Shown here: one piece after another, positions 15,122 to 53,923 of the stretch
How positions within the stretch are numbered: the stretch's first letter is position 1
Layout of the letters: each line of letters opens with the position of its first letter
Assembly: GCA_016185525.1 (NCBI GenBank)
Contig: JACPNK010000006.1
Coordinates: 115,440 to 179,439, forward strand
Origin: Candidatus Yanofskybacteria bacterium
GTDB taxonomy: Bacteria > Patescibacteriota > Minisyncoccia > 2-02-FULL-40-12 > IGHO2-12-FULL-4
Length of the DNA: 64,000 bases
Direction of reading: 5' to 3'
Position numbers and translations under genes: made by a program
Notes under the pieces: generated by a model
Databases searched by the model: none
What the model saw: the letters and a program-made list of their open reading frames with translations, nothing else
Told to the model about the DNA's origin: nothing

Positions 15122-15172
15122 CTGTTACAAGTTGTAGGTTATAGGTTTTATGTCTCCCAGAAAATATAAAAA

Positions 15173-15200
15173 ACTTATAACTTATAACTTATAACTTATA
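15173..15200 (+). repeat. perfect heptanucleotide tandem repeat (acttata)x4 abutting the clpC start codon
   Basis: Four exact 7-mers end 3 nt before the ATG at 15204; degenerate inverted copies (aggttat) lie at 15137-15150. Confidence 0.9.
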
Positions 15201-15203
15201 ACA

Positions 15204-28101: not shown

Positions 28102-29967
28102 CTAAACAACTTCTATTTGCCATCCGCTTGGCACTAAGCGTAACAACTCGTTGCGCCGCGCCCCGTAGTGAGCCGAAGGTTCTACTATGGGGTTTTTTAC
28201 TACTTTTAAAACAATTTCTTGCGTATGTAGTCCTTTTTCTTTTAATCCTGCATTTGGTCCGATAATTTCAATTTCTTTCCCATAATTCTTAATTCCTAAT
28301 TCATGATTCAACCTTTCTCTTACTATTTCCGCCTCTCTTTCCGCTGTTCTCGAATCTTGGTGGCGGAAGATTAATTTAATAAGTTCGGCAAATGGGGGAT
28401 AGCTGAATTCTTTTCTAGCCTCAAGCTCTTCTTCGTAAAAACTTTTAAAGTCTTGGCTTAAAATTGTTTTTACCACTCTTGCGTCGGAATCGTAGCCTTG
28501 GATTAAGGTTTTTTCTGTCATTTGAGACAAAATAAAAACTATTCTTAAGGCTTCTTCTTCTGTTCCAAAATCAACAAAATTTAGTAAAGATTCTAAGTTT
28601 AATATACCAACTAAATCGGCTTTTAGCAAGCGCTGATAGCTCAATATTTTTTGTGTTGTCAGCAGGATTGCCGGTCCCGGATTTTTAAATTGGTCTATAA
28701 TTTTTTCTTCCTCTTTTTGCGGAGTGTCGCTGCTTAAGGCCAGTATTTTTGGCGAAGTTATATTCTGGTCTTTGAAAAACTTTACCAACTTTTCCTCGGC
28801 TTTTTCTATGCCCAAGCCCTTATATTCCAAAACTGATTTGTTGCAGTTGGGGCAGACATTTAATGTTGGCTGTATGTTTTGACAGTGATGACATTTTAAA
28901 ATTGTTTTAGGTTTTAAGTTATAAGTTGTAAGTTTAAAGGCAGTCAGGTTTCGATCGCAGTTTGGACATCGGGGAATATAGCCGCAGTTTTGGCACAGAA
29001 GATACGGGGCATAGCCTTTGCGCGGTACGAATATTATAATTTTGTTTTTTTGCTGTACCGCCGATTTCAGTTGCTCTTTAAGTTCAGCGCTGAAAATTGA
29101 AAAATTGGTATTTTTAATTTCACCGACCATGTTGGCGAATGAGATATCAACTTTTGTTTTTTGGGGCAATGTCTCTTCTCCAAATTCAAAATATGTTTCT
29201 ACTTTCGGCAAAGAATCGTTTATGATTAATTTGGCTCCGTATTCTTTGGCGGTTCGTCTGGCCAAAATGCCGGTATCGTATTTGGGGGTGTAGTCGGAAC
29301 GGTAGGCGATATTTGACTCGGCTTCCACAATTATTTCTTTGAGGTTGTTAAAAGGCAAAAACAAAGCGACTCTGGTGCCGACTATTGTTTTTATTTCTCC
29401 GTTTTTAACTCTTTGCCAAATATCAAAATATTCTTTGGTTGGAGTACTGCTTGAAAGAAAAACGGGATTTTCTTTTTTGTATTTCTCCAAGAAGTGTTCG
29501 GCCATTATTTTTTCGGGAGTTAAAATAAGTTTTTGTCCTTGGTTACTGAGGTCTGGCGAGTATGCCTCTTCTTTGCGTCGGACTTGTCGCCGACGAACTG
29601 CAGAAGAGGCATACTCGCCAGACCTCTTAAGCAAAAATGCCGGTAACATGGCTTTAACGCACAAACCCAGTGGCGCAAAATATTTTACCGAGAGCCACAA
29701 AGCGATATTTAGCTGATGTTGGTTGAGAACAGGCTGTTCTTTTAGAATTTTGCCTATTGGTTTCAGCTCAAAATCAGCCTCTTTTTTAAGCTTGATTTTT
29801 AACTCCGCCAGACTTTTTGAAGCCAACACGACTGCGGTTATCTTTCTTTTTCTTATCTCAACTTCAACCAAAGCGCCTGCTGGTAGCTTTTCTTCATAAA
29901 AATAACTCAAGATCTGGTCCTGATTTCTGGGAATTGCGGTTAGGGGGATAACCTCAAGAATATACAT
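28102..29967 (-). CDS. priA: primosomal protein N' (PriA) with degenerate helicase motifs
   Basis: N-terminal 3'-DNA-binding domain, a Cys-rich zinc-binding insert (CQNCGY, CPNCD, CHHCQ, CPNC) and a C-terminal domain. Walker A reads SSSTPTKE and DEAH reads EAES, so both are degenerate. Carries two in-frame repeat insertions. Confidence 0.75.
   Translation of the reverse strand: MYILEVIPLTAIPRNQDQILSYFYEEKLPAGALVEVEIRKRKITAVVLASKSLAELKIKLKKEADFELKPIGKILKEQPVLNQHQLNIALWLSVKYFAPLGLCVKAMLPAFLLKRSGEYASSAVRRRQVRRKEEAYSPDLSNQGQKLILTPEKIMAEHFLEKYKKENPVFLSSSTPTKEYFDIWQRVKNGEIKTIVGTRVALFLPFNNLKEIIVEAESNIAYRSDYTPKYDTGILARRTAKEYGAKLIINDSLPKVETYFEFGEETLPQKTKVDISFANMVGEIKNTNFSIFSAELKEQLKSAVQQKNKIIIFVPRKGYAPYLLCQNCGYIPRCPNCDRNLTAFKLTTYNLKPKTILKCHHCQNIQPTLNVCPNCNKSVLEYKGLGIEKAEEKLVKFFKDQNITSPKILALSSDTPQKEEEKIIDQFKNPGPAILLTTQKILSYQRLLKADLVGILNLESLLNFVDFGTEEEALRIVFILSQMTEKTLIQGYDSDARVVKTILSQDFKSFYEEELEARKEFSYPPFAELIKLIFRHQDSRTAEREAEIVRERLNHELGIKNYGKEIEIIGPNAGLKEKGLHTQEIVLKVVKNPIVEPSAHYGARRNELLRLVPSGWQIEVV
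28909..28940. repeat. gttttaagttataagtt dispersed repeat (family 3) in-frame in priA
   Basis: 17 of 17 nt identical to 50151..50167; degenerate agttata heptamers; encodes KLTTYNLKPKT. Confidence 0.75.
29548..29629. repeat. palindromic repeat element (family 2), copy 2, in-frame in priA
   Basis: Perfect 24-bp inverted stems (gaggtctggcgagtatgcctcttc / gaagaggcatactcgccagacctc) enclose the same core as 10212..10288. Confidence 0.85.
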
Positions 29968-33833: not shown

Positions 33834-33847
33834 ATTTCTTAAAAATC

Positions 33848-33883
33848 TACTGAGAAGCTACTGAGAAGTTGAACTTATCAGTA
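33848..33883. repeat. REP palindrome with half-site direct repeat, 5' flank of the RAYT gene
   Basis: tactgagaag x2 half-sites, then the 25-bp palindrome tactgagaagttgaacttatcagta. Confidence 0.85.
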
Positions 33884-33905
33884 GAACATGTTAAATTTCT
33901 GAAAT

Positions 33906-34550
33906 ATGCATAAAGAATATTTTACCAATGGGGAATTTTACCATGTGTATAATCGCGGAAACAATAAGCGAAAAATTTTTTTGGATCAAAGAGACTTTAA
34001 AAGATTTTTTCAAAGCATACGGGAATTCAATTCGGAAGAACCGATTGGTAGTATATATCTTAATTCTTTTAAGGACGCCTCGCTTAGAAGTTCAACTTCT
34101 AAGTTAGTTGATTTTGTTTGTTTTTGTTTAAATCCAAATCATTATCATTTTATTCTCAAGCAACTAAAAGAAAGGGGTATTGAAAAGTTTTTACATAGAC
34201 TTGGCACGGGTTATACTAAATATTTTAATGAAAAACATAAATGCAGTGGCTCTCTTTTTCAGGGCAGGTATAAAGCGATACACTTAAACTCTAATGAATA
34301 CCTACTACATCTTAGTGCCTATGTGAATTTAAATTATGAAGTTCACCAACTGAGAAGTTCAACTTATCAGTGTGATTATAAATCTAGTTGGGCAGAATAT
34401 CAAAACAACTTGGTAGAAAGTATATGTAATAAAGACATTGTACTTTCTCAGTTTAGAAACTTTGATAAGTATAGGGAATTTGCAGTTAATGCTATTCAAA
34501 TAAGTAGGACCAAAAAAGATATGGAAAAGTTGTTATTGGAAGAGGTCTGA
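33906..34550 (+). CDS. REP-associated tyrosine transposase (RAYT; IS200-like HuH Y1 transposase, TnpA_REP)
   Basis: YHVYNRGNNKRKIF N-terminus, HuH motif NHYHFIL, GRYKA and Y..N C-terminal tyrosine region are typical of COG1943 RAYTs; the gene is flanked by inverted REPs. Confidence 0.8.
   Translation: MHKEYFTNGEFYHVYNRGNNKRKIFLDQRDFKRFFQSIREFNSEEPIGSIYLNSFKDASLRSSTSKLVDFVCFCLNPNHYHFILKQLKERGIEKFLHRLGTGYTKYFNEKHKCSGSLFQGRYKAIHLNSNEYLLHLSAYVNLNYEVHQLRSSTYQCDYKSSWAEYQNNLVESICNKDIVLSQFRNFDKYREFAVNAIQISRTKKDMEKLLLEEV
34083..34103. repeat. REP palindrome inside the RAYT coding sequence, copy 1 (in-frame)
   Basis: cttagaagttcaacttctaag encoding LRSSTSK. Confidence 0.85.
34350..34370. repeat. REP palindrome inside the RAYT coding sequence, copy 2 (in-frame)
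   Basis: ctgagaagttcaacttatcag encoding LRSSTYQ. Confidence 0.8.
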
Positions 34551-34557
34551 CTCTGAT

Positions 34558-34645
34558 CACTGATAAGTCACTGATAAGTTGAACTTCTCAGTAAAAACTT
34601 CTCAGTAAAAACTTCTCAGTAAACTTCTCAGTAAATTTCTCAGTA
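34558..34645. repeat. REP palindrome plus tandem half-site array, 3' flank of the RAYT gene
   Basis: cactgataagt x2, palindrome cactgataagttgaacttctcagta (inverted relative to the 5' REP), then (aa)aacttctcagta x4 tandem. Confidence 0.9.
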
Positions 34646-34749
34646 AAAGGTTTCGAACTATTACGCGGCAGTGCATCGTGTATTTGACTACTTGCAGGAT
34701 ATCTGCTAGGGTCGATTTGCTTTTTAATAATTAGTGAAAGGATAGAAAA

Positions 34750-42175: not shown

Positions 42176-43408
42176 CTACCTGATAATCTCCAAGGCTTTT
42201 TCCAGTTGAGGATCTTTGAGGGGGTCTTTTTCTGTTTCTTCCGCATCTTTTTTGACTTCGTAGTCCGGCTTAATGCCGTTATCGCTGATAGATATTCCGC
42301 TTGGGGTGAACCATTTGGCAATGGTGATTTTAAGTGTTGATTTTTTGTTTCCAGATAAAAACTCTACAAGCTCCTGAACCGAACCCTTGCCAAAAGATGT
42401 TTCGCCCACAATCTTGATTCCTCTATTGTCTCTTAACGCTCCGGCCAGGATTTCAGATGCCGAAGCTGATCCCTTGTTGATGATAATAATCATGGGGTAT
42501 TTTTTAAGCTGTCCATTCTTTGCTGTTTTTAAGATCGTCTCTGTTTTGTCGGCAAATTTTTCGCTGACTACGGTCTGGTTGGGATCTAAGAACCAGCCGG
42601 CAATGTTTACCGCTGAATCCAAAATCCCGCCGGGGTTATTTCTTAGGTCCAGAACTATTTTTTCGGCTTTTGACGCCAAAATTTCTTTAGCCACTCTGGC
42701 AAAGTCTGCGTCAATGTTTCTGTTGAAGGTGAGGAGTTGAATGTGGGCAACATTGTCTTCCAGAAGCTTCCAGTCTATTGTCGGTATTTTTATTTCTTCC
42801 CTGATTAGATTGAATTCTTTCGGATCTTTGTCTCCGTTTCTCTGAACAGTTAGTTTAACGCTTGTTCCCTTTTTTCCTCGGATTTGGGTGACGGCTTCGT
42901 CTATGGTTAAACCGCCGGCATCTTTGTCATTGATTTTTATTATTATGTCCCCTGCCAATATGCCTGCTTTGTAAGCGGGAGTGTCTTTTATGGGCGCAAT
43001 AACGGTCAGAAGATTTTTTCTCATACCTATTTCTATCCCAACCCCGCCGAAAGAGCCGTTAATCTGTTCCTCAAATTTTTTACTTTCTTCCGGTTTAAGG
43101 AAAACGGTGTAAGGGTCGCCCAAAGAGTTTACCATGCCTTCTATGGCGCCATAGACTAAGTTTCTTTTGTCCTGCAGTTTTTCCTGGTCAACAAATTTTT
43201 CCTCAAGTTTGTTAAGGGCCGTCCAAAATAGTCCGAAGTCAATTGATACCGGCTGGCCGAGATCTTTATTGTCTATCTGCGTGATTATTTGGTCTACGGC
43301 GCTGTCATTCTTGAATTTTTCAAACTTTATACCGCCATAAAAACTTCCGCCAAGAAGCAAGACCAGCAGAATCAAAAGAGTTATTTTGTTATTTATTTTC
43401 TGAAGCAT
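42176..43408 (-). CDS. ctpA: carboxyl-terminal processing protease (S41, PDZ-containing)
   Basis: N-terminal TM, PDZ domain, and S41 catalytic Ser/Lys region (GSASASEI...K). Confidence 0.8.
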   Translation of the reverse strand: MLQKINNKITLLILLVLLLGGSFYGGIKFEKFKNDSAVDQIITQIDNKDLGQPVSIDFGLFWTALNKLEEKFVDQEKLQDKRNLVYGAIEGMVNSLGDPYTVFLKPEESKKFEEQINGSFGGVGIEIGMRKNLLTVIAPIKDTPAYKAGILAGDIIIKINDKDAGGLTIDEAVTQIRGKKGTSVKLTVQRNGDKDPKEFNLIREEIKIPTIDWKLLEDNVAHIQLLTFNRNIDADFARVAKEILASKAEKIVLDLRNNPGGILDSAVNIAGWFLDPNQTVVSEKFADKTETILKTAKNGQLKKYPMIIIINKGSASASEILAGALRDNRGIKIVGETSFGKGSVQELVEFLSGNKKSTLKITIAKWFTPSGISISDNGIKPDYEVKKDAEETEKDPLKDPQLEKALEIIR

Positions 43409-44222
43409 AGTTCAGCAGGGTTTGACCGGAACGGTATTTCAGACCGTGTTTTAAGAAATATTTAATGGCGCTTTCTATGTGCCATCTGGCCTCTCTTCTT
43501 ATGAAAACATCCAAAAAATCAAAACCGGCGCGCGATTGTCTTATATGATAATGAAGCATTACTGCGTCCGGCAGATAGGCAACTTTATAACCATTCTCCC
43601 AGAATCTTTTTGCCCAGTCAACGTCTTCAAAATACAACCTGAACCTTTCGTCCATTATGCCCACCTTTTCCAGGGCCTTTCGGGTGGTCATAAGCGCCGA
43701 ACCCATTACCCAGTCAGGTTGGGTTTTAGACTCAAGTTTTAAATTAAAGTCCGCCAACCTTTTTTTTGCAAAAGGCATTTTTCCCAAGAAAGTCCGGCGA
43801 TAGACAATTGTCATTGGACGATAAAATTTGAATTTTGAGTTTTGGGTTTGGCCGTTAAAGTTTAGAAGTTTTGGTCCCAGAAGGCCGATGTCCGGATTTT
43901 TGTCTAAGTGGTTGGACATTTTTTTGACTGAATCGGATGCGATTATTATATCCGGATTGAGTATCAGCACATGTCTGCCTTTGGAATTTTTCAGGCCATA
44001 ATTTACTCCGGCGGCATAACCTACGTTTTTTATGAGCGGCAAATAATTAGTCCAAGGGAATTTTTCTCTCAAAATTTCCCCGGTTTCCGTTTGGGCTTCA
44101 GAGTCAACAACAATCGTTTCAAATTCGTTTATCTGTCCTAAAAGATGCTTTTGGATTGAGTTAAGACAGAGTTTTAAGAGTTCGGGGCTTTTGTGATGGA
44201 CTATTATAATTGAAAGATTCAT
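43389..44222 (-). CDS. family 2 glycosyltransferase
   Basis: LSIIIVHHKS...DSE (DxD-like) GT-A N-terminus. Confidence 0.75.
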   Translation of the reverse strand: MNLSIIIVHHKSPELLKLCLNSIQKHLLGQINEFETIVVDSEAQTETGEILREKFPWTNYLPLIKNVGYAAGVNYGLKNSKGRHVLILNPDIIIASDSVKKMSNHLDKNPDIGLLGPKLLNFNGQTQNSKFKFYRPMTIVYRRTFLGKMPFAKKRLADFNLKLESKTQPDWVMGSALMTTRKALEKVGIMDERFRLYFEDVDWAKRFWENGYKVAYLPDAVMLHYHIRQSRAGFDFLDVFIRREARWHIESAIKYFLKHGLKYRSGQTLLNYASENK

Positions 44223-44226
44223 GGCT

Positions 44227-45267
44227 TTAGTTTTGTTTGAAATAATTCCTAATCAAGTTCCAGTCATTGTTTTTGGGCAAAAGAACATAAGCGTTGTTTT
44301 GAGCGGTTTCATAAAGCAAGTTTTCGGTGGTTATCGTCTTGGTTTGCAGTTTTTCTGCGGAGTTAAAAGTGAGAGCAAGCTGGAGAATGTTTTTTGTGTC
44401 CCAGATATTAAAGTCTGTGGAGATGTTATTTTTCAAACTGTTGGCCAGAGAAGTTATTTTAACCGGATTACTTAAGATTCCCAGACTTAGAGCCTTTTTT
44501 TTGACAGCCAAAATTATTTCTTGCTGTCTCCTTGAGCGGTCAAAGTCGTTTGTGCTGTAGCGCGATCTGGCATAGTAAAGAGCCGTCTGGCCGTCTAGGT
44601 GGTTTTCTCCGGCGGACAGACTAAACTCATAGCCCCACTGCGACTTTTCTTCAAAAGGTTTTTCTAAGACAATATCTATACCGTCCAGAGCATCAACTAT
44701 TTCTTTAAATCCTTGGAAGTCAAAGACTACTATTTTATCAATAAAAATCCCGCTTATTCTTGAAAAGGAATTTTTTGCAAAATTGGTTTTGTCTTTCTTG
44801 GACAGACCTCTTTCGTAAATCTCGTTTGCTTTTCCTTTAAAAAGGCCCGGCAGGTCAATGTAGAGATCTCTGGGTATTGAAGTTAAGGAAGCTTTTTTGC
44901 TTTCGTCACGAAAGCTGAAAAGCATGATGCTGTCGGTCAAAAGTCCCCCGTCCGGGTCATCAACGCCTCTTATGCCAAGAATTAAAACGTTCAATCTTCC
45001 GGCTTCTTCTTCTGGCATCGGAAAATTTTTGTTCAACTCCTCTTGCTGATTAACTTCCTCACCCTTTTTTGAGGTTAAAAGCGCGCTTGCCCTTTTTAAC
45101 CAGGAAGACTGTTTTTCTATGATTATAGTGCTTGATTTGTCAAAAAGTAGCAGTAAACCGAGGAGTAATAATATGATTAAGGCCAAACTCAAACCAAAAC
45201 GTTTTTTGCTTGACGATTTTTCGTTGAAGTCACTTTGTTGAAAACTTGTCTGGTTCATATAAACCAT
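44227..45267 (-). CDS. LytR-CpsA-Psr (LCP) family cell-envelope polymer transferase
   Basis: N-terminal TM; LNVLILGIRGVDD...LTDSIMLF LCP core. Confidence 0.75.
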   Translation of the reverse strand: MVYMNQTSFQQSDFNEKSSSKKRFGLSLALIILLLLGLLLLFDKSSTIIIEKQSSWLKRASALLTSKKGEEVNQQEELNKNFPMPEEEAGRLNVLILGIRGVDDPDGGLLTDSIMLFSFRDESKKASLTSIPRDLYIDLPGLFKGKANEIYERGLSKKDKTNFAKNSFSRISGIFIDKIVVFDFQGFKEIVDALDGIDIVLEKPFEEKSQWGYEFSLSAGENHLDGQTALYYARSRYSTNDFDRSRRQQEIILAVKKKALSLGILSNPVKITSLANSLKNNISTDFNIWDTKNILQLALTFNSAEKLQTKTITTENLLYETAQNNAYVLLPKNNDWNLIRNYFKQN

Positions 45268-46316
45268 TTTGCCATTTGTTCGGGACCAACTTCGGCTTTA
45301 AGCATAATTTCTTTTCTTTTTTTGAACATTTTGGGTGTCAGACTGATTAATTTTGGTATCTCAAGCAAAACAGAAGGTTCAAACAAAACAGCATAACCCA
45401 ACTCCTGAATTTCCCTTCTTAAGATCCGGGGTAAATTTTGTAAAACATTAATCCAGTAATCATTTTTTAATCTGGCTAATCTCTTGTTTCTCCAGTCCAA
45501 TCTTTTTTTGAGGGCGGGTATTTTTTTTCTCTCGCCCGTTCTTTTAAAATAGTCGAGCCAGCTTTTACTCACGCCTTTAGTGGTGGAACGGTCGTGGTAC
45601 ATAATAACGGGCGGGCTATAAATTTGTTTCCAGCCAAACAAACGCATGCGCCAGACTAAGTCAATATCGTCCCCGTACCAAAACATATCATGATCTACGA
45701 TTTCACCTGTAATCACGGAATCTTCAAGAGCTTCTCTGCGGAAAATGGGCGCGGCGCCCTCAACTCCAAAAACCTCCATTTCTTTGTCGTATTGTCCATT
45801 GTCCAATTCCCCATGCCCAAGATTTATAATTTTTCTTGAGCGGAAAATGCCAAATCCTACCGTATCAATGATTTTTTCTTGTAACTCCGGCCGGAATGTT
45901 TGGGTCTGCAGTTTGTTAATGTCGTATTGATAGATTTTAGCTTGCAGAGCTCCTATTCTTTCATCTTTTTCCATGACTACCACAGACTTTTCCACCGTGT
46001 CCGGCGCAAACAGAACGTCAACGGAAAGAGCTATAATATACTTTCCGTACGAATAATCTAAGGCTTTTTCCTGACCGCCCCACATCCCATAATTAATTTT
46101 GTTTTCAATAAAGTTAGTCATTTGCCATTTGCCATTTGCCATTTGCCATTCGCGGATTATTTCTTTTGTTTTGTCTGTTGAGCCGTTGTCAAAAATATTT
46201 ATCTCTAAATTGCTGTAAGTTTGGTTTTTCACGGCATCCAAACAATACTGGATATACTTTTCTCCATTTAAAACCACCAAGTTTATTGTAACCAGTGGAC
46301 TTGACATAAAACACAT
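45255..46316 (-). CDS. family 2 glycosyltransferase carrying an internal heptanucleotide repeat tract
   Basis: GT-A fold (VVLNGEKY, DNGSTD); contains (atttgcc)x4 encoding WQMANGKWQMTN. Confidence 0.75.
   Translation of the reverse strand: MCFMSSPLVTINLVVLNGEKYIQYCLDAVKNQTYSNLEINIFDNGSTDKTKEIIREWQMANGKWQMTNFIENKINYGMWGGQEKALDYSYGKYIIALSVDVLFAPDTVEKSVVVMEKDERIGALQAKIYQYDINKLQTQTFRPELQEKIIDTVGFGIFRSRKIINLGHGELDNGQYDKEMEVFGVEGAAPIFRREALEDSVITGEIVDHDMFWYGDDIDLVWRMRLFGWKQIYSPPVIMYHDRSTTKGVSKSWLDYFKRTGERKKIPALKKRLDWRNKRLARLKNDYWINVLQNLPRILRREIQELGYAVLFEPSVLLEIPKLISLTPKMFKKRKEIMLKAEVGPEQMAKWFI
46120..46154. repeat. perfect heptanucleotide tandem repeat (atttgcc)x4 plus one degenerate unit inside the GT2 CDS
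   Basis: Read directly from the sequence, 46120..46147 perfect and 46148..46154 attcgcg. Confidence 0.95.
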
Positions 46317-46364: not shown

Positions 46365-46694
46365 ATGTCCAGTATAAAAAGAAATTTGACGGAGGCACAG
46401 TTTTTGGCCTCATTGGCGGAAGCCGGCTCTTGGGTTGGCGGTATTCCGTTTGTTTTTGATCCTAAATCAGAAAGCGTAAGCAGGTTTTTGGAAAGACTTA
46501 GGCTTATGGGACTGTCCGCAAGTCCCGAAGAAGTTACGAAAGCAGTCTCAAAATTCTTTGAAGAAAAAGAAAAATGGGGTATTTCTCTTGTCAGGTTAGA
46601 TAAACTGATTGGCGGCCGATTTGAAGTCGGCTTAAATCCTGACAATATGGCGATAGATTTTTCCGCCTTGACTTCAAAGAGGCGAACTTTTTAA
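46365..46694 (+). CDS. hypothetical small protein
   Basis: AAGGAAAAAG RBS, terminator hairpin immediately downstream (46714..46738); preferred over the antisense ORF 46346..46645. Confidence 0.45.
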   Translation: MSSIKRNLTEAQFLASLAEAGSWVGGIPFVFDPKSESVSRFLERLRLMGLSASPEEVTKAVSKFFEEKEKWGISLVRLDKLIGGRFEVGLNPDNMAIDFSALTSKRRTF

Positions 46695-46704
46695 ATACCG
46701 AACA

Positions 46705-48285
46705 CTAGTAAGCGCCTTCAAATTTTGAAGGCTTTTTTAATGACAAAATTATAGCCGAATTCACGGCAAATATTAAAAATGCCCGTTCGTCAAAAAGCGC
46801 GGCATCGGTTAAAGAATAGAACAAAACCCAAATCGTGTAAAGAACAAAAGAGGCGCTGTAAACTTTATTGAAGATGTTGGTATTGCTCCAAAAAACAGCC
46901 AGCCCGCTTTTTAGTATTAATAAAAGAGTGCCTAAAACGGCCACTAATCCCAAAATTCCAATTTCGGCTGCTATTGTAAGATATAAGTTGTGGGCGGAAG
47001 ATCCGGCTTTGGCATATTCGGTTTCCTGTGACAAAACGACAGGATAGTTGCCTATTCCCACTCCCAACAAAGGTTTTTTGATAATTGAAGCAACCGAAGC
47101 TTTCCATATGGCTATGCGACCATTGTTTGACGTTTCTTCTAGGTCCAGTATTGAGCGTATTCGTTTAGCCAAGATTTCACTGCCGGTTTTTTTAATTTGG
47201 AATTGGTCTGAACCAAAAATTGGATAGGCCACCGAAAAAAGCATTGGGAACAAAACAAAAAACAGAGAAATGTATTTAAGAATATTTTTGTCAGATATAC
47301 TTTTGGAGAGTTTCAGTAAAAAAGGCAGTGTTACTATCGGTCCGAGAACTGCCAACCAGATTCCTCTGGTTCCGCTCAAGATGACCAGTAGAAAAAAAAT
47401 CGGTATTAGAATAACCAGCAAGGAAGCCCTGGTCTTAATCAGTTTTTTGAGTTGGGAAATCTGTCCGGTTTGAAAAACTTTTGTGAGGGAAAAGGCCAGA
47501 AGAGAGGGTATCGCCAGAAGCAAGAATATTGGAAAAGAATGCGAGTCGGGCAGGGTTGAAAAAATCCGCAAAGAAAGCTGGGGGCCGAAATAAGCAAACC
47601 AAGTATTTGCTTCTTGGGCCGTTTGCGACCAGGCAGAACCATAAAATCCCAGCTGGACCGAACCGGCCCAAAAGTCCATGAACTCATAAATTGAAACCAT
47701 GTAGGCGCTGATTAATTGCGCAACCGCAACAACAGCAACGATGACTCCGGAAAGTAAAATGTTTTTGACTAAATTTCTGGTTGTTTCCGGCTTTTTACGG
47801 ACCAAATCGTAAATGACAAAACCAATGAGGCTTAAGTTTGTAAAATATATTATTCTCTTTATCCCGCTGACTAAATCGTCGGCCGCTATCAGAGAGAATA
47901 AAGAAAACACTAAAACGACAAGGGCGAAGAAAGACAGCTGGTATTCCTGAAAATTGATGTTAAACGCCACCTCCCCGGAGAGTTTTTTTATTTGAACCAG
48001 TTTTTTTTCAGCAAAAAACCACTTTAAAAAAATAAGGCCTGAAGCAATCCGCCAGATATTAAAAGAGTCGAAGTATGGCGTTAAAGGAATTGCCACGAAA
48101 ATCGGCACGGATCTGACAAAAAAAGCGGTTGCTGTTTCCAGATCAGCCCACAAAACAAAAAAACCGGTCAAAATGGCAAGACCCAATATCGTATTTCTGG
48201 GAATTACTCCAAAGGCAACCAAAAAAACAACTACGACCTCAATTAAAAAAACTATATTGACGGGTTTTTTCAGCGTATTGAACAT
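46705..48285 (-). CDS. O-antigen ligase/polymerase-like polytopic membrane protein (Wzy_C family)
   Basis: 526 aa with >10 TM helices and a large periplasmic loop, within a glycosyltransferase cluster. Confidence 0.6.
   Translation of the reverse strand: MFNTLKKPVNIVFLIEVVVVFLVAFGVIPRNTILGLAILTGFFVLWADLETATAFFVRSVPIFVAIPLTPYFDSFNIWRIASGLIFLKWFFAEKKLVQIKKLSGEVAFNINFQEYQLSFFALVVLVFSLFSLIAADDLVSGIKRIIYFTNLSLIGFVIYDLVRKKPETTRNLVKNILLSGVIVAVVAVAQLISAYMVSIYEFMDFWAGSVQLGFYGSAWSQTAQEANTWFAYFGPQLSLRIFSTLPDSHSFPIFLLLAIPSLLAFSLTKVFQTGQISQLKKLIKTRASLLVILIPIFFLLVILSGTRGIWLAVLGPIVTLPFLLKLSKSISDKNILKYISLFFVLFPMLFSVAYPIFGSDQFQIKKTGSEILAKRIRSILDLEETSNNGRIAIWKASVASIIKKPLLGVGIGNYPVVLSQETEYAKAGSSAHNLYLTIAAEIGILGLVAVLGTLLLILKSGLAVFWSNTNIFNKVYSASFVLYTIWVLFYSLTDAALFDERAFLIFAVNSAIILSLKKPSKFEGAY
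46714..46738 (+). terminator. rho-independent terminator
   Basis: gccttcaaattttgaaggc plus tttttt; overlaps the 3' codons of the convergent minus-strand gene. Confidence 0.6.
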
Positions 48286-49397
48286 AGTTCTTTGAAGATT
48301 TGTATCAGTTTTTCAGTATGTTTTTCCCAGTTGAATTTTGATGTTATTCGCGGACTGTTCAGAATAACTTCTTCCATTTTCTGTCTGTTGTTTAACGCCC
48401 GTTCTATTGCCGACGCTATCTGCTGCGGGTCGGTCTCGTCTTGGACGAAAAAAGCGCTGCCTTCGTAAATTTCTTTGTTCAAATCGTTATTCTTAACCAG
48501 AGGCGGTGTGCCCAAGGCGAGAGCTTCAAGCGGAGGCAGTCCCATGGCTTCGGAGGTGGAAAGGTAAATAAACAGCTTGGCTCCGGCAATTAAAAATTTC
48601 AAATCTTCATCTTTGTCTATATAATCATAATGCATAACCCGCTGACCGCCTAATCTTTTATTGGTTTCTTGAATAAGACTTTTTAAAATCGGCGGATTGT
48701 ATTTGTCTTGGCCGACCAAAATTAGTTTCAGGTCTGGAAATTTATCCGCAAGTATTTCAAAAGCTTGAATTGTTTCTTTGGCTCTTCTGCGGGGTAAGGC
48801 TTGGCCGACATAGAGTAAATAGGTTCTAAGTTTTAGGTTATAGGTTATAGGCTTATTTGGTTGGTCTATGCCGAGATAATTCACCATTATTCTTTCGGGG
48901 GGGATTTTGAAGAGTTGAGAAATTTCTTTTTTGGCGGATTCAGTGAAAGTTGTGATTTTGGTGGCTCTTTTTGCCGCCCAGTTGCTGAAAAGCAGATAAC
49001 TTATGCGGTACTTCCAGGGATGGGTGCCGAATTTATATTCGTAGTAAACATCGTTGGTTAAAACCACTAAAGACTTACCCAAGAAAAAAAGAGGCAGCAT
49101 AAAACCGGGGAAAAAGGTTGCGTTAATTTTGTCGCGCAGGCAAGCCAAAGGCAAAAGAACGTGAAAGAATATATTATAAGATGGGCGCAGAAAAGGCAGT
49201 TTTAAAACCTTTTTTACGAAGATCGGATTGTTGAGATAGGGGTCGTCCGGGACGAACCCTTTGAAGTATAAGTAAAATTTGAACTCTTTTGCGAGTTCAG
49301 ATTTTTTTGATATCTCTTCCAGTATCTTTGATAAATGTCTGCCTATCCCCCATCTTTTATTTTCCAAATTGTGGCACTCTATGGCAATTTTATACAT
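48270..49397 (-). CDS. family 4 (GT1-fold) glycosyltransferase
   Basis: C-terminal EAMGLPPLEALALGTPPL GT-B signature; the track ORF runs to 49490, and the internal Met at 49397 avoids overlap. Confidence 0.75.
   Translation of the reverse strand: MYKIAIECHNLENKRWGIGRHLSKILEEISKKSELAKEFKFYLYFKGFVPDDPYLNNPIFVKKVLKLPFLRPSYNIFFHVLLPLACLRDKINATFFPGFMLPLFFLGKSLVVLTNDVYYEYKFGTHPWKYRISYLLFSNWAAKRATKITTFTESAKKEISQLFKIPPERIMVNYLGIDQPNKPITYNLKLRTYLLYVGQALPRRRAKETIQAFEILADKFPDLKLILVGQDKYNPPILKSLIQETNKRLGGQRVMHYDYIDKDEDLKFLIAGAKLFIYLSTSEAMGLPPLEALALGTPPLVKNNDLNKEIYEGSAFFVQDETDPQQIASAIERALNNRQKMEEVILNSPRITSKFNWEKHTEKLIQIFKELCSIR
48828..48856. repeat. family 3 repeat (agttttaggttataggttatagg) in-frame in the GT4 gene
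   Basis: Encodes KPITYNLKLRTY. Confidence 0.7.
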
Positions 49398-49440
49398 AAG
49401 TCGTTGTGGAATTAGAGGAGCTATCGCTACATAATTTTGG

Positions 49441-50397
49441 TTATTTTGGAACAATCGCTCCGAATTTATTTTTATAAAAATCCAACACACCTTCTATGAT
49501 GGCATCGGCGGCGGGTGCTTTAGACGGCATAACAAACATTTTAACCAAATTTTTCAAAACGATATAACCTGACCAGAAAATCAAAAAAGGCTTAACTGTC
49601 CAAGGCGCGTTTAAGCTGTTGAATATCAGGGCGTTTCTCGAGTGGTAGCGTAAAACAATAGGCGAACCGAGTTTTTTTGTGGTTGCGGAAACTTTGTGGT
49701 GGACTATGGCTTCCGGGACAATTTTCAGCTCATAGCCGGCTAACTGGGCTCTTATATTTAAATCCGCATCCTCAAAATACAGAAAATAAATTTCGTCAAA
49801 ACCTTTGATTTTTTCCAGCACCTCTTTTTTAACTAGCATAGCCGCGCCGATTACATATTCTTTTGGTTTAAGGTATTTTTCGGCTGGTGGTGTGCTGGAA
49901 TGAGTTAGCTCTGTTTTCAGCCAAGAGATTTTACCAAAGTAAGCTGTTTTCTGGCCTTCTTTGATTGCTGGTCCGATTATGCCGACTGTTGGGTCGGTCT
50001 CTGCTGCGGCGATCAGTTTTTTTAAAACATCCGGCTCAACCACGGTGTCGTTGTTTAAAATAAAAATACAATCGGCTCCTTTTTCTAGGGCATATTTTAT
50101 ACCAACATTGTTTCCGCCGGCGTAGCCCAGGTTGGAGGGGTTTGTTATAAGTTTTAAGTTATAAGTTTTAGGATTAACTTGACTTTCTGTATAACTTTTG
50201 ATATTATTAACTTCAGCTTCGTTTGAAGCGTTGTCCACTACGACAATTCTAAAGTTTGGATAATCTAGTTCTTTTAAAGATTCCAAACACTCCAAGGTGT
50301 CTTGGGAGTTGTTGTATTGGAGAACGATTATGAAAACAGAAGGAGGAAACATGATTGGTGCTGTTTTATTTATTTTTGTTTGCATTATTTTGCTCAA
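49441..50397 (-). CDS. family 2 glycosyltransferase
   Basis: FIIVLQYNNSQDT...VVVDNAS GT-A signature. Confidence 0.75.
   Translation of the reverse strand: MSKIMQTKINKTAPIMFPPSVFIIVLQYNNSQDTLECLESLKELDYPNFRIVVVDNASNEAEVNNIKSYTESQVNPKTYNLKLITNPSNLGYAGGNNVGIKYALEKGADCIFILNNDTVVEPDVLKKLIAAAETDPTVGIIGPAIKEGQKTAYFGKISWLKTELTHSSTPPAEKYLKPKEYVIGAAMLVKKEVLEKIKGFDEIYFLYFEDADLNIRAQLAGYELKIVPEAIVHHKVSATTKKLGSPIVLRYHSRNALIFNSLNAPWTVKPFLIFWSGYIVLKNLVKMFVMPSKAPAADAIIEGVLDFYKNKFGAIVPK
50144..50173. repeat. family 3 repeat (gttataagttttaagttataagttttagg) in-frame in the GT2 gene
   Basis: Encodes NPKTYNLKLITN. Confidence 0.75.
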
Positions 50398-50432: not shown

Positions 50433-52901
50433 TTAGTTCTTGTGAAAGACAAAATTCTTTATTTCTTCCTTAAATCTCTGCCGAGAAAATTTCTCGGCAG
50501 AGATTTTTATTTCTTCCGGATGGTAACTTTCATAATTTTCATTCAATCTTCTGACTCCATCAGCTAAAACTGCCGGATGCGGGTCTTCAAAAAACTCGCC
50601 ATTTATGCCCTCTTCAATATACTCCAAAGCCCCGCCTCTTTTCAAAGCTAAAACCGGTTTGCCAAATTGCATGGCCTCAAGAGGTGTTAAGCCAAAGTCT
50701 TCTTCTTGGGGCATAATAAAAGCTTTTGCGCCTTGGTAGTATTTTATCAAATCTTCGTCCGAAACCTCTCCCGCCATTTTTATCATTTTTTTGTTTTCAA
50801 TCATAGACTTCAATTTTTTATACTCCGGCCCACTGCCCACTATCACCAAAGGCAGTTCAAGTTTGTTGAAGGCTCGTATGGCAATATCAATATTTTTGTG
50901 AGGAAACAAGCGAGAGACGATTAAGAAATAATCTTTAAGACTTGAGTCACAGTGCTTCGCACTTTCGCAGAAAGTGCCTGGCTCTTGACAAGACGAGCCG
51001 CTTTGCGCGATGAGAAAATCTCGCTGGGATTTTCGAAGGTCCGAAGAAGTACTGTGATGAAAGTCTTGTGTGGGCGGATAAATTACTATTGAATCGCGGT
51101 TATAGTATTTCTTAATCCTCTGCTGAACATTTTTTGAAATAGCGATAAATTCGTCAACTCTGTCTGCCGCGCTTCTGTCCCAAATCCTCAAAAAATGCTG
51201 AAGTATGCTTATTCTGAAATTTTGCGTTTTTCGTTTTTCGCTTTGCGTTTGGTACTCCTTGTTCCAATCCCACAAAAATCTTGTCGGGCTGTAGCAATAG
51301 CAAATATGCCTGGTTTTGGGTTTTAAAATCAGGCCTTTAGAGAAAGCTATGGAAGAAGATATGACCAGGTCGTATTGACTCAAATCAAAAGACTCGGCCG
51401 CAACAGGCAAGAGGGGCAAAAAAAGTTTGTGGTTTACGAATTTCAGTTTGTAAAGTTTTTGTAAAAAAGAGCTCTTAATCTTTGCTTCCGGCAAGAATTT
51501 GTCGGTAAATTTTTTGTTATAAAAAAAAGTGTAAATCGGCGCTTCCGGGAACATTTCATGCAAAACTTTCAGCACTCTTTCCGCTCCACCCAAACTCAAA
51601 ATCCAATCGTGGACAAGGGCTATTTTTTTGTTTTTTTCTGAATTTGCCGGCATAATTTTGGGTTCAATATTGTTGCTTTGACCAGCTTGTTTCCCCTGAA
51701 ATGTTTTTATAACCAGGTACATGTACAGTAGTGTTATTGGCAAAGATTTGCCTGCAATCATCAGGCTTCTAAGGACTTCTGTATTATTTTTGTGCCAAAA
51801 AAAGTATAAGGTTGGAGAGGCTAAAAGCAGCCATATCGTAAAAATGAAGATTTTTTCTTTTCGACTGACGCTAAGCAAGAAAGTAAGAGCAACTATGGGC
51901 GCAAGAAAAGCCAAGAGGCTCTCCCAGACTTCTTTATAGAAAATAAAGGGGGAAAGCGCCAGAAGCAAGGGGAAATAAAGTTCTGACTTTGAATTGTTAT
52001 TCTTAAATAAGTAAACGATCGGAACGATGCTGGCGATGGAGACCAAAACAATCCCCAGGACTTTATACAGAATGTAATGTTTATCGTAAAAAAGTTCTCC
52101 AACGAAAGCCGGTAGTCCGAAGTTATCAATGTAGTGAACTTGCCAGCCGATACGTTCTTTGTCTGTAAGGAATCCGAATGCCTTTTTGGCGGAAGCAATA
52201 AAGCTGTCTGATGGCGGATCTTTAAAATAAATAAGGTAAAGTATGGTAAACGCGGCAATTCCTAAAAAATAAAATATGGCTTTATAGTTTTTTTTCTTGA
52301 AATAGTAAAAAATTCCAAATATAAAGATAGGTTTTGTTATTATGCTGCTCAACCAACCGAAAACTGAAACTCCGTTTTTTTTAGAAACTACGCCCCAGAA
52401 GAAAATTAAAAAAAACAAACCGGCCAAAGAGTTGTACTGTCCCATTCTCCAATCAGATTGGTAGCTCCAAAAAATCCAGTAAAGTCCGACAGATAAAATT
52501 ATTTGCCAAGCATCTTTTTTTAAAGTTAACCCAATTTTTGTTATAAAAACTAACCCAAAAATTAGAATCGCAGCCTGAAGAAGGATGACATAATAGCGAT
52601 AAAATGTTTCAAAGGAAACCTTCTCTGTTAGAGGACTTGCCAGAATTGGCAGAATCGGCAAGTATTTCCAAGGAAAATAGTCGTTTGTGAACAGAGTTTC
52701 TTGAGCGCTTTGGCCGTAAATAAAATTACCACTTCCAAAATTTTTGCCGGCTTGGTACAAAGATTGGAAGTCCTCACCAATGGCTGCGCATAAGGTATAT
52801 CCAAGGTCCGAACAAGAAAACTGCCAAAACTGGAGAATGCTTAGAAGGTACAGTGTGGAAATTACGGCTATGATTAGAAATATTTTTCTAGAATCGGTCA
52901 T
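50433..52901 (-). CDS. fusion protein with N-terminal polytopic membrane domain and C-terminal GT4 glycosyltransferase, carrying a GC-rich in-frame insertion
   Basis: ~400-aa multi-TM N-terminus; C-terminal GT-B motifs (ALVHDWI...EDFGLTPLEAM); the linker between YPP and KDYFL is ~30 aa longer than expected. Confidence 0.7.
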   Translation of the reverse strand: MTDSRKIFLIIAVISTLYLLSILQFWQFSCSDLGYTLCAAIGEDFQSLYQAGKNFGSGNFIYGQSAQETLFTNDYFPWKYLPILPILASPLTEKVSFETFYRYYVILLQAAILIFGLVFITKIGLTLKKDAWQIILSVGLYWIFWSYQSDWRMGQYNSLAGLFFLIFFWGVVSKKNGVSVFGWLSSIITKPIFIFGIFYYFKKKNYKAIFYFLGIAAFTILYLIYFKDPPSDSFIASAKKAFGFLTDKERIGWQVHYIDNFGLPAFVGELFYDKHYILYKVLGIVLVSIASIVPIVYLFKNNNSKSELYFPLLLALSPFIFYKEVWESLLAFLAPIVALTFLLSVSRKEKIFIFTIWLLLASPTLYFFWHKNNTEVLRSLMIAGKSLPITLLYMYLVIKTFQGKQAGQSNNIEPKIMPANSEKNKKIALVHDWILSLGGAERVLKVLHEMFPEAPIYTFFYNKKFTDKFLPEAKIKSSFLQKLYKLKFVNHKLFLPLLPVAAESFDLSQYDLVISSSIAFSKGLILKPKTRHICYCYSPTRFLWDWNKEYQTQSEKRKTQNFRISILQHFLRIWDRSAADRVDEFIAISKNVQQRIKKYYNRDSIVIYPPTQDFHHSTSSDLRKSQRDFLIAQSGSSCQEPGTFCESAKHCDSSLKDYFLIVSRLFPHKNIDIAIRAFNKLELPLVIVGSGPEYKKLKSMIENKKMIKMAGEVSDEDLIKYYQGAKAFIMPQEEDFGLTPLEAMQFGKPVLALKRGGALEYIEEGINGEFFEDPHPAVLADGVRRLNENYESYHPEEIKISAEKFSRQRFKEEIKNFVFHKN
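50945..51060. repeat. GC-rich in-frame insertion with internal palindromes in the GT4 domain
   Basis: Local GC is clearly higher than the flanks; gcactttcgcagaaagtgc palindrome; encodes HHSTSSDLRKSQRDFLIAQSGSSCQEPGTFCESAKHCDSS. Confidence 0.6.
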
Positions 52902-52915
52902 TTTGAAACCGATAG

Positions 52916-53923
52916 TTATCTTTTGGTCATGATGTTTCTCTTGTAAACATCAAGATTGTTTAACACAACACCGGTGCCTTTTGAGACGCAGAGCAGTGGG
53001 TCGTCAGCTATGCGGCAGACTACGCCGGTGACTTTGGTTACCAAGGTGTCTATGTTTTTTAGCAATGCTCCTCCGCCGGAAATTACGATGCCTTTGTCAA
53101 CGATGTCAGAACATAACTCCGGAGGCGTGTCCTGCAGGACAGTTTTAATGGTCTGGACTATTTCTCTTAACTGTTCTTGCATTGCTTCGGTGATTTCGTT
53201 TGAGCTGATTTCCACGGTTTTCGGATAACCGGAAGTCAAGTCTCTGCCTCTGACATTTATTTTTTCTTCAGCGCTTTGCTTAACAGCGCTGCCTATGGCT
53301 ATTTTAATTAATTCAGCTGTTCTGTCGCCGATTGCCAAGCTGTGCCTCTTTTTTATGTAATCAACTATTGCTTCGTCAATCCTGTTGCCACCCACCCTGG
53401 CAGACGCGGCATTGACTATGCCGCCAAGGCTGATAATCGCCACTTCGGTAGTGCCGCCGCCGATATTTAATATCATGTTGCCGGAGGAGCTGTTTATGGA
53501 GATTTTGGCTCCGATGGCGGCCAAAACAGGTTCTTTAACCAGATAAGCCGCTTTGGCGCCGGCATTGATGGTTGCTTCAATAACCGCCCGTCTTTCGGTA
53601 GAGGTAATGCCTGCCGGCACCGAGATTAAAACTTCAGGCTTAACTAAGCCTATCTTGCCGACTGCTTTTTTAATGAAGTATCTCAACATGGCTTCAGTGA
53701 CCCTGTAGTCGGCAATAACCCCGTCTTTTAGGGGTCTGGAGACGACGATACTGTCGGGGGCCCGGCCTATCATTTCCTTGGCTTCGTTGCCTACAGCAAT
53801 GATTTTGTTGTCAAGAACTGAAATAGAAACAACTGACGGTTCGTTTACAATGATGCCCTTTTTGGGCAAAAAAACCAGTGTGTTGGTTGTGCCCAAATCA
53901 ATACCGATTTTCTTTACAAACAT
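52916..53923 (-). CDS. mreB: rod shape-determining protein MreB
   Basis: IGIDLGTTNT actin-fold phosphate-1 motif and MreB length. Confidence 0.9.
   Translation of the reverse strand: MFVKKIGIDLGTTNTLVFLPKKGIIVNEPSVVSISVLDNKIIAVGNEAKEMIGRAPDSIVVSRPLKDGVIADYRVTEAMLRYFIKKAVGKIGLVKPEVLISVPAGITSTERRAVIEATINAGAKAAYLVKEPVLAAIGAKISINSSSGNMILNIGGGTTEVAIISLGGIVNAASARVGGNRIDEAIVDYIKKRHSLAIGDRTAELIKIAIGSAVKQSAEEKINVRGRDLTSGYPKTVEISSNEITEAMQEQLREIVQTIKTVLQDTPPELCSDIVDKGIVISGGGALLKNIDTLVTKVTGVVCRIADDPLLCVSKGTGVVLNNLDVYKRNIMTKR

What the first reader, a model, noticed from the sequence alone, without database searches (positions are those of the whole stretch)
46120..46154. Perfect heptanucleotide tract (atttgcc)x4 inside a GT2 glycosyltransferase: candidate phase-variation switch
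Four exact 7-bp units plus one degenerate unit lie inside the coding sequence of a surface-polysaccharide glycosyltransferase. A 7-bp unit is not a multiple of three, so gain or loss of one unit by slipped-strand mispairing would frameshift the enzyme. This is the classical contingency-locus design, known as tetra- to heptanucleotide repeats in glycosyltransferases and restriction-modification genes of host-associated bacteria. It has not been a described feature of CPR envelope clusters.
Basis: partly seen in the sequence, partly recalled or inferred. Interest (0 to 1): 0.65.

Follow-up and report, generated by a model that had tools for sequence, protein, structure and literature searches.

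The report
Heptanucleotide on/off switch in CPR glycosyltransferase
A perfect 7-base repeat inside a cell-surface sugar-transferase gene of an uncultivated groundwater bacterium (Candidatus Yanofskybacteria) belongs to a lineage-wide set of such repeats, and in related species the loss of one or two repeat units has switched the same gene off in nature.

Summary
Window 46119-46150 is a perfect period-7 tract of 4.6 units inside a GT2 glycosyltransferase (45255-46316, minus strand) of a cell-envelope glycan cluster. Orthologous GT2 genes of many Yanofskybacteria/Paceibacteria carry a perfect 31-35 nt heptanucleotide tract at the same loop, with at least 12 different unit sequences. In 1.25 Mb of related loci, perfect tracts of 28 nt or more occur 46 times in GT2, GT4 and Wzy-like genes and effectively never in 556 kb of other genes. 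No other period from 4 to 12 behaves this way. Two natural frameshifted alleles were found. One differs from at least 20 ON contigs by loss of exactly one unit, the only indel in 20.8 kb that carry just 2 SNPs. The other lost two units at a second array site in the same gene family. For the window's own tract I found no polymorphism data. Both unit-loss alleles come from one assembly. The copy number is low and nearly fixed at four units, unlike classical contingency loci. Verdict: a new variant of simple-sequence-repeat (SSR) phase variation, not found described for the candidate phyla radiation (CPR) in the searchable literature.

The parts
46119..46150 (-). Perfect heptanucleotide tract, 4.6 units. 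Coding-strand unit is TGGCAAA/GGCAAAT. It encodes WQMANGKWQM.
   Evidence: Perfect tracts sit at the same loop in orthologues.
46148..46154 (-). Degenerate fifth unit (attcgcg on the + strand). In relative L068 this unit is intact, giving 5.0 perfect copies.
46114..46120 (-). Stop codons in both alternative frames directly after the tract: TGA at 46120-46118 and TAA at 46116-46114 on the coding strand.
45255..46316 (-). GT2 glycosyltransferase gene that hosts the tract. The annotated product P0001 starts at the ATG at 46307 and is 350 aa.
   Evidence: Pfam PF00535. Match to P0001 at 100% identity, named Candidatus Yanofskybacteria. AlphaFold2 model with mean pLDDT 80.6: the tract peptide forms the end of helix 47-58, a turn, and the start of strand 63-68.
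44227..45267 (-). LytR_cpsA_psr gene whose start overlaps the 3' end of the GT2 by 13 nt. It may be affected by polarity or loss of translational coupling when the GT2 is OFF (inference).
48823..48851 (-). Degenerate heptanucleotide array in the neighbouring GT4 gene (48270-49490). It lies at the inter-domain linker, just before the YLLYVGQ motif, where other species carry perfect tracts.
43827..43849 (-). Degenerate heptanucleotide array in GT2 gene 43389-44222.
50144..50167 (-). Degenerate heptanucleotide array in GT2 gene 49441-50397.
51220..51244 (-). Degenerate heptanucleotide array in the 822-aa GT4-type gene 50433-52901.

Best explanation
The tract is a slipped-strand-mutable simple sequence repeat that acts as a frameshift ON/OFF switch for a GT2 glycosyltransferase of the cell-envelope glycan pathway. 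It is one member of a lineage-wide set of heptanucleotide switches in the glycan genes of Yanofskybacteria and related Paceibacteria. With four units (4.6 copies counting the partial unit) the gene is in frame (ON). Gain or loss of one or two 7-nt units during replication shifts the frame, and a stop follows at once, leaving a 62-70 aa fragment without the catalytic part (OFF). A further slip restores the frame. Shown: the tract; its coding position; the frame consequences; conservation of tracts at the same loop with changing unit sequence; strong restriction of such tracts to GT2, GT4 and Wzy-like genes and the spacers just upstream of them; and natural alleles in related species that differ only by loss of one or two units and are frameshifted. 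Inferred: that the window's own tract slips at a useful rate; that switching is reversible; that it is maintained by selection for variable surface glycans (for example host attachment or phage escape); and that OFF also lowers expression of the overlapping downstream LytR gene.
For: (1) The tract is perfect and non-random. (2) Changes of 1 or 2 units truncate the protein at 62-70 aa, and changes of 3 units keep the frame. (3) Seventeen distinct perfect arrays of 26-35 nt lie at the same loop in orthologues. They use at least 12 different units, including TGGCAAA, AATTGGA, GATTTCG, AGCTACA, AGTTACA, AGCTTCA, TTACAAT and AGTGGAC. Some units differ by one substitution that is present in every copy, which indicates concerted evolution. 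(4) Arrays stay perfect and identical between species whose GT2 genes are only 63-76% identical in DNA. Window versus L068 shows 32 of 32 array positions identical at 76% gene identity. (5) L019 and L095 have the same flanks but 4 units versus 1 unit, a difference of exactly 21 nt. (6) First natural OFF allele: L147/L150 (ERZ27254845) versus L151, L086 and L012 shows 20.8 kb with 2 SNPs and a single indel, loss of one AGCTACA unit. The gene is then called only from M78. At least 20 other contigs are ON. (7) Second natural OFF allele: L159 versus L110 is 99.25% identical, with a 14-nt (2-unit) deletion in the site-2 array that splits the gene into 149 + 207 aa. (8) Perfect tracts of 28 nt or more number 25 in 243 kb of GT2 genes, 14 in 151 kb of GT4 genes and 7 in 162 kb of Wzy-like genes. 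They number 1 in 451 kb of other genes (a misclassified GT2) and 0 in 105 kb of LytR genes. Including degenerate arrays, the counts are 151 versus 7. (9) Period 7 is specific: 78 perfect tracts of 3 or more copies, against 21 of period 4 (12-13 nt each), 5 of period 8, 1 each of periods 5 and 6, and none of periods 9-12. (10) The gene is dispensable in nature, because other inactivating lesions exist: L160/L161 carry a 1-nt deletion and L148 a larger deletion.
Against: No copy-number variant of the window's own tract was found. Its genome has a single representative in the databases. Among about 150 loci the gene is in frame in all but a few, and identical tract lengths were seen wherever near-identical contigs could be compared. 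Both unit-loss OFF alleles come from one MEGAHIT assembly (ERZ27254845), so an assembler artefact cannot be fully excluded. Against that, a second array in the same contig is intact, and sister MEGAHIT assemblies carry four units. Copy number is low and nearly fixed at 4.x, with 5 or more units almost never seen and 7 units never seen. Classical contingency tracts have roughly 5-40 units and vary widely between strains (PMC2651432). Degenerate period-7 arrays also occur in PriA and RsmH in the window, so not every array can be a switch.
Confidence: 0.68

Rival explanations
1. The tract is a neutral footprint of a lineage-specific mutational process. That process would create 7-nt tandem arrays, which survive only where three extra units (21 nt, 7 aa) are tolerated in a surface loop. 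On this reading the tract is a passive in-frame insertion with no biologically relevant switching.
For: The copy number is almost always 4.x, that is one original unit plus three, which is the in-frame increment. Period-8 arrays also have about 4 units. The tract peptide lies in a variable helix-end and turn region of the GT-A fold, where orthologues differ in length. Degenerate arrays exist in PriA and RsmH. Nearly all assemblies are in frame.
Against: There is a roughly 25-fold or greater restriction to GT2, GT4 and Wzy-like genes compared with other genes that also have loops. Repeats of period 6, 9 or 12, which would be better tolerated, are absent. Perfect arrays are preserved across 24-37% DNA divergence, with unit substitutions spread through every copy. 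Real one-unit and two-unit frameshift alleles exist. Simple slippage has no one-step route from 1 to 4 units, so frameshifted intermediates must have been viable.
Confidence: 0.2
2. The functional variable is loop length rather than ON/OFF. In-frame changes of three units (1, 4 or 7 units) would alter a 7-aa loop segment and tune enzyme specificity or interactions.
For: One-unit and four-unit versions with identical flanks exist between species: L095 versus L019, P0085 versus P0118, and P0097 versus P0059.
Against: No 7-unit allele was seen. The loop sequence is not conserved and lies away from the conserved catalytic motifs. The polymorphisms actually observed between near-identical strains are frameshifting changes of 1 and 2 units.
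Confidence: 0.07
3. The tract is a chance occurrence or an assembly artefact.
For: Nothing specific. The window comes from a metagenome-assembled genome.
Against: Shuffles gave no comparable arrays. The same feature appears in assemblies from many studies and assemblers, always in frame.
Confidence: 0.01

Closest known systems
Neisseria meningitidis pglE, a pilin-glycan galactosyltransferase phase-varied by a heptanucleotide repeat (PMC7157529)
   Same: A heptanucleotide tract lies inside the coding sequence of a glycosyltransferase that decorates a surface structure. Unit gain or loss shifts the frame ON or OFF.
   Different: The organism there is a host-adapted pathogen. From memory, its tract copy number is larger and varies between isolates. 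In Neisseria the heptanucleotide is one of several repeat types (poly-G, tetra-, penta-), whereas here period 7 is almost the only type. The proteins are not homologous as far as tested.
Haemophilus influenzae contingency loci: tetranucleotide repeats in the LPS glycosyltransferases lic2A, lgtC and lex2A, and heptanucleotide repeats at the hmw1A/hmw2A promoters (PMC2651432)
   Same: Simple sequence repeats are concentrated in surface-glycan genes and in promoter or 5' regions. Multiple loci per genome form a phasome. OFF alleles occur in natural genomes.
   Different: The H. influenzae tracts have 5-38 or more units and differ in length in almost every strain. They lie near the 5' end of the gene. 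Here the tracts have about 4 units, nearly invariant in length. They sit in internal loops or linkers at positions conserved across species, and the unit sequence turns over.
Hypervariable 9-mer (PTD) repeat gene of a Gracilibacteria (BD1-5) genome (PMC6851277)
   Same: This is the only repeat-based hypervariation in a CPR genome found in the literature search. It is also surface-related.
   Different: The unit there is in frame (9 nt), the array is long, and the variation is synonymous sequence change rather than a frameshift switch.
Cyanobacterial STRR heptanucleotide tandem repeats (from memory; no open-access paper retrieved)
   Same: A lineage-specific preference for 7-nt tandem repeats.
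   Different: STRRs are, from memory, a few dispersed unit families found mainly in non-coding DNA. Here the units are diverse and locus-specific, and they lie mostly inside glycan genes.

Membership tests
SSR-mediated phase-variable (contingency) locus | Perfect tandem repeat whose unit length is not a multiple of 3, located within an ORF or its promoter. | tested here: met
   A 7-nt unit in 4.6 perfect copies inside the GT2 ORF.
SSR-mediated phase-variable (contingency) locus | A change of repeat number switches the reading frame and abolishes the product. | tested here: met
   In silico, adding or removing 1 or 2 units gives 62-70 aa products. The natural alleles L147 and L159 are split or truncated.
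SSR-mediated phase-variable (contingency) locus | Repeat-number polymorphism among otherwise near-identical strains or within a population. | tested here: inconclusive
   Met for the orthologous tract in a sister species: 3 versus 4 AGCTACA units across 20.8 kb with 2 SNPs. Also met for a site-2 array, with a 14-nt loss. Not testable for the window's own tract, because no second assembly or reads are available. Most near-identical contig pairs show no difference.
SSR-mediated phase-variable (contingency) locus | High-frequency, reversible switching (about 1e-5 to 1e-2 per generation). | not testable with these tools
   This needs read-level counts or a culture or reporter assay. The only indirect evidence is unit homogenisation across species.
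SSR-mediated phase-variable (contingency) locus | Over-representation of such tracts, concentrated in surface-structure genes. | tested here: met
   There are 46 perfect tracts in 556 kb of GT2, GT4 and Wzy-like genes, against 1 (a misclassified GT2) in 556 kb of other genes plus LytR genes. Period 7 is specific. The window holds 11 period-7 arrays against 0.45 expected.
Glycosyltransferase family 2 (GT-A fold, PF00535) | Significant match to the family profile above the curated cut-off, with an N-terminal nucleotide-sugar-binding fold. | tested here: met
   PF00535 scores 76.7 bits against a cut-off of 23.3. Profile hits to solved GT2 structures include chondroitin synthase and SpsA. The AlphaFold2 model shows an alternating strand-helix N-terminal domain. 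No NCBIfam equivalog reaches its cut-off, so the specific substrate is unknown.
Cyanobacterial STRR-type dispersed heptanucleotide repeats | A few shared heptamer unit families repeated at many, mainly intergenic, sites. | tested here: not met
   The units differ from locus to locus, and 65 of 78 tracts lie in open reading frames.

The most novel reading that the evidence does not exclude
Yanofskybacteria and relatives may have a dedicated, period-7-specific process, an enzyme or a replication or repair peculiarity. It would create and homogenise four-unit heptanucleotide arrays at defined loop or linker positions of glycan-synthesis genes. This would give these ultrasmall episymbionts a combinatorial surface-glycan phasome with a mechanism distinct from ordinary slippage. 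It would explain three features: the near-exclusive period of 7 (rarely 8), the sharp limit at about 4 units even in non-coding spacers, and array births that look like +3-unit events.
Probability: 0.12. Interest if true: 0.9.

Novelty: new variant of a known kind. Interest (0 to 1): 0.75.

Why it matters
CPR/Patescibacteria make up a large part of bacterial diversity. They are thought to live attached to host cells, and almost none are cultivated. How they vary their surface is essentially unknown. This result points to a hypermutable switch system in an environmental CPR lineage, and I found none described before in the searchable literature. It suggests that their envelope-glycan clusters are run as a set of stochastic ON/OFF switches, as in host-adapted pathogens. 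That makes questions about host range and phage escape testable directly from metagenomic reads, by counting repeat units over time. It also flags a practical issue: these tracts coincide with scaffold gaps and split gene calls in metagenome-assembled genomes. Finally, the odd regularities (only 7-nt units, about 4 copies, conserved sites with changing unit sequence) raise a mechanistic question about repeat birth and maintenance.

Tried and rejected
Exact-sequence look-ups of the window's GT2 (353-aa and 350-aa forms) in the contig index found nothing. Strain variants of this genome therefore could not be examined.

A search with the 63-aa N-terminal fragment, aimed at truncated OFF products, returned only contig-end fragments, a chimeric scaffold with an N gap at the array (L149), and one read-level frameshift of unclear origin.

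Two of the three cluster-member look-ups gave only alternative starts or contig-end truncations.

A flank-anchored scan for length differences among all fetched loci found none. The one exception was a site where one species has a period-7 array and another a period-8 array.

In silico addition or removal of units, to look for split ORFs, recovered only L147.

The distance to the first off-frame stop after the tract is short in most orthologues. That is expected in AT-rich DNA, so it is not used as evidence.

I considered and rejected selection on the encoded peptide, because the peptides differ between species. I rejected a protein- or RNA-binding site, because the units differ. I rejected a programmed ribosomal frameshift site, because there is no conserved slippery or structural element. 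I rejected an assembler artefact, because many assemblers give the same result and a second array in the same OFF contig is intact.

Literature searches for heptanucleotide, SSR or contingency loci in CPR found nothing. The cyanobacterial STRR search also found nothing.

Full report
**Observation**

The + strand at 46120-46147 is (atttgcc)x4, followed by attcgcg. The perfect period-7 run spans 46119-46150 (32 nt, 4.6 copies, 100% matches). It lies in ORF 45255-46316 on the minus strand. That ORF matches Pfam Glycos_transf_2 (E 2.7e-21). It is 100% identical to a protein annotated as a GT2 of a Candidatus Yanofskybacteria metagenome-assembled genome (P0001).

On the coding strand the tract reads TGG CAA ATG GCA AAT GGC AAA TGG CAA ATG, which encodes WQMANGKWQM. 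Thirty dinucleotide-preserving shuffles of the window gave no array of similar score at any period from 4 to 14. The only perfect repeats of 3 or more copies with period 4-12 in the 64 kb are this tract and a second heptanucleotide tract at 15172-15202.

**Genomic context**

The gene sits in a co-directional envelope-glycan cluster:
- S41 protease (42176-43408)
- GT2 (43389-44222)
- LytR_cpsA_psr (44227-45267, overlapping the 3' end of the tract-bearing GT2)
- the tract-bearing GT2 itself
- a Wzy_C/O-antigen-ligase-like membrane protein (46705-48285)
- GT4 (48270-49490)
- GT2 (49441-50397)
- a long GT4-type protein (50433-52901)
- MreB (52916-53923)

No NCBIfam equivalog reaches its cut-off for the GT2, so its substrate is unknown.

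An AlphaFold2 model (mean pLDDT 80.6) places the tract peptide at the end of helix 47-58, a turn, and the start of strand 63-68 (P0001 numbering). This is the segment whose length varies among the aligned orthologues.

**Consequences of slippage**

Adding or removing one or two units places a stop 0-1 codons after the tract (TGA at 46120-46118, TAA at 46116-46114). The product is then 62-70 aa. Adding or removing three units keeps the frame.

**Orthologues**

Aligning the closest 20 homologues showed that the loop between DNGSTD..TKEII and NLGMW is hypervariable. In many proteins it reads like the three-frame translation of a 7-nt repeat, for example WKLEIGNWKL, DFGFRISDFGF and NSKFEIRNSKF.

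DNA fetched from one genome per species (66 loci) and from metagenomes (80 loci) confirmed this. There are seventeen distinct perfect arrays of 26-35 nt at the same position, with at least 12 different units. All are in frame.

Several further points follow:
- The relative L068, 76% identical in DNA, has the same unit as the window in 5.0 perfect copies.
- Units in related genes differ by single substitutions present in every copy: AGCTACA, AGTTACA and AGCTTCA.
- Arrays are identical between species whose genes are only 63-76% identical.
- L019 and L095 share flanks but have four units versus one.

Together these show repeated gain and loss of whole units over evolutionary time. A substitution can spread through a four-unit array only via unit loss and gain. 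Single steps are frameshifts, so lineages must have survived OFF states.

**A lineage-wide feature**

In 1.49 Mb of loci plus the window I found 78 distinct perfect period-7 tracts of 3 or more copies. The comparison counts are 21 of period 4 (all 12-13 nt), 5 of period 8, one each of periods 5 and 6, and none of periods 9-12.

Tract lengths peak sharply at 31-34 nt, and there are none of 38 nt or more.

I classified ORFs in 1.25 Mb of non-redundant loci by similarity to the annotated cluster genes. Perfect tracts of 28 nt or more are distributed as follows:

| Gene class | Perfect tracts ≥28 nt | Sequence examined |
|---|---|---|
| GT2 | 25 | 243 kb |
| GT4 | 14 | 151 kb |
| Wzy-like | 7 | 162 kb |
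| LytR | 0 | 105 kb |
| Other genes | 1 (a misclassified GT2) | 451 kb |
| Intergenic or short ORFs | 9 | 140 kb |

Including degenerate arrays, the counts are 151 in GT2, GT4 and Wzy-like genes, against 7 in other and LytR genes.

The intergenic tracts lie 0-40 nt upstream of start codons, mostly of glycosyltransferase genes.

Recurrent sites exist in addition to the window's loop:
- a second loop of the same GT2 family, around residues 135-150
- the inter-domain linker of GT4 enzymes, just before the YLLYVGQ motif

The window itself holds 11 period-7 arrays at a relaxed threshold, against 0.45 expected. Five of them lie in the glycan cluster.

**Natural OFF alleles**

The 90%-identity cluster of P0048, an orthologue with (AGCTACA)x4.4, contains a 270-aa member on a 78-kb contig. 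Its DNA (L147/L150, ERZ27254845) carries (AGCTACA)x3 + AGC instead of x4 + AGC. Over 20.8 kb it otherwise differs from the reference contigs by 2 SNPs and no other indel. A second heptanucleotide array in the same stretch is unchanged. At least 20 other contigs carry the in-frame allele.

A second case comes from the P0055 cluster. L159 is 99.25% identical to L110, but it has a 14-nt (two-unit) deletion in the site-2 array. This splits the gene into 149 + 207 aa.

The gene is also found inactivated in other ways. L160 and L161, two independent assemblies, carry a 1-nt deletion in an A4 run. L148 carries a larger deletion. So the gene is dispensable in nature.

Two scaffolds have N gaps exactly at the array (L149, L162). 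This fits heterogeneity at the site, but it is not proof.

**Caveats**

- No variant of the window's own tract could be examined.
- Both unit-loss alleles come from one assembly. However, sister MEGAHIT assemblies and the intact neighbouring array argue against an assembler artefact.
- The ON state dominates.
- Copy number is low and nearly fixed. H. influenzae tracts of 5-38 units differ in almost every strain (PMC2651432).
- Degenerate arrays in PriA and RsmH show that some arrays are relics in genes unlikely to be switched.
- Why only 7-nt units are used, and why arrays stop at about 4 units even in spacers, remains unexplained.

**Comparison with known systems**

Functionally this is SSR phase variation of surface-glycan genes. 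The closest known cases are Neisseria pglE, a heptanucleotide repeat in a glycosyltransferase (PMC7157529), and the H. influenzae LPS glycosyltransferase loci (PMC2651432).

It differs from those in four ways: the lineage (environmental CPR), the near-exclusive use of heptanucleotides, the fixed four-unit ON state, and the location in internal loops or linkers conserved across species while the unit sequence turns over.

Literature searches found no description of SSR-based or heptanucleotide-based phase variation in CPR. The only repeat-based hypervariation retrieved for CPR is an in-frame 9-mer array in a Gracilibacteria genome (PMC6851277).

**Verdict**

This is a new variant of a known kind. 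My confidence in the switch mechanism is about 0.68, and interest is 0.75.

Noticed in passing
window 15172-15202: A second perfect heptanucleotide tract, (AACTTAT)x4.4. It is non-coding, because the unit contains TAA. It lies in the 82-nt spacer between an HrcA-like gene (14378-15121) and a ClpC/ClpB-type AAA+ gene (15204-17882), and it ends 1 nt before the ATG, leaving no room for a Shine-Dalgarno sequence. Similar spacer tracts in relatives sit 0-40 nt upstream of GT genes and of mreB.
   Followed up: partly
window 33840-34650: ORF 33906-34550 is an IS200-like Y1 transposase (PF01797, E 2.6e-6) that looks like a REP-associated tyrosine transposase. It is flanked by short repeats: CTACTGAGAAG x2 followed by TTGAACTTATCAGTAG upstream, and TCACTGATAAG x2 followed by a 12-14-nt array (AACTTCTCAGTAAA, about 5 copies, 34582-34648) downstream. 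Related palindromes occur inside the ORF.
   Followed up: partly
window 28283-28310, 28904-28934 and 1722-1752: Degenerate 28-31 nt period-7 arrays lie inside a PriA-like helicase gene (two arrays) and the RsmH/MraW methyltransferase gene. These are housekeeping genes where an ON/OFF switch is unlikely. They look like decayed four-unit arrays.
   Followed up: partly
L023 4165-4205; L139 10160-10200; P0003 and P0005, residues about 135-175: GC-rich insertions of about 35-40 nt sit in frame inside the heptanucleotide array (L023, L139). The L139 insertion has hairpin-forming arms. P0003 and P0005 carry GC-rich inserts at the second variable site, and the two proteins read them differently. They look like small GC-rich elements that target the array sites in otherwise AT-rich genomes.
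   Followed up: partly
L085 1962-1990 versus L098 4434-4467; also L081 1190-1222, L085 8060-8096 and L103 6907-6941: Rare period-8 arrays also have about 3.6-4.6 units. In one case the array lies at the same site, with conserved flanks, where another species has a period-7 array.
   Followed up: no
Proteins P0043, P0125, P0126 and P0127 (one 90% cluster): The members are identical over the C-terminal two-thirds, approximately. Their N-terminal 130 aa or so, including the tract loop, are clearly different. This suggests recombination that swaps the 5' part of the gene between strains.
   Followed up: no
L160 around 560 and L161 around 559, versus L079; L148 870-890: The same GT2 family is inactivated by lesions unrelated to the tract. 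There is a 1-nt deletion in an A4 run, seen in two independent assemblies, and a deletion between NGE.. and ..DNG in a GW2011 genome.
   Followed up: partly
L001 and L063 (same MAG), L071, L149 and L162: Contigs end, or scaffolds carry N gaps, in the 5' region of this gene that holds the variable loop (L001, L063 and L071 are short-loop forms without an array). In L149 and L162 the N gaps fall at the array. This part of the gene is therefore a recurrent assembly breakpoint in MAGs.
   Followed up: partly
window 46365-46694 (+): A 109-aa ORF with no Pfam match lies on the opposite strand in the 388-nt gap between the Wzy-like gene and the tract-bearing GT2. Relatives have an 86-aa opposite-strand ORF at the same place.
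   Followed up: no
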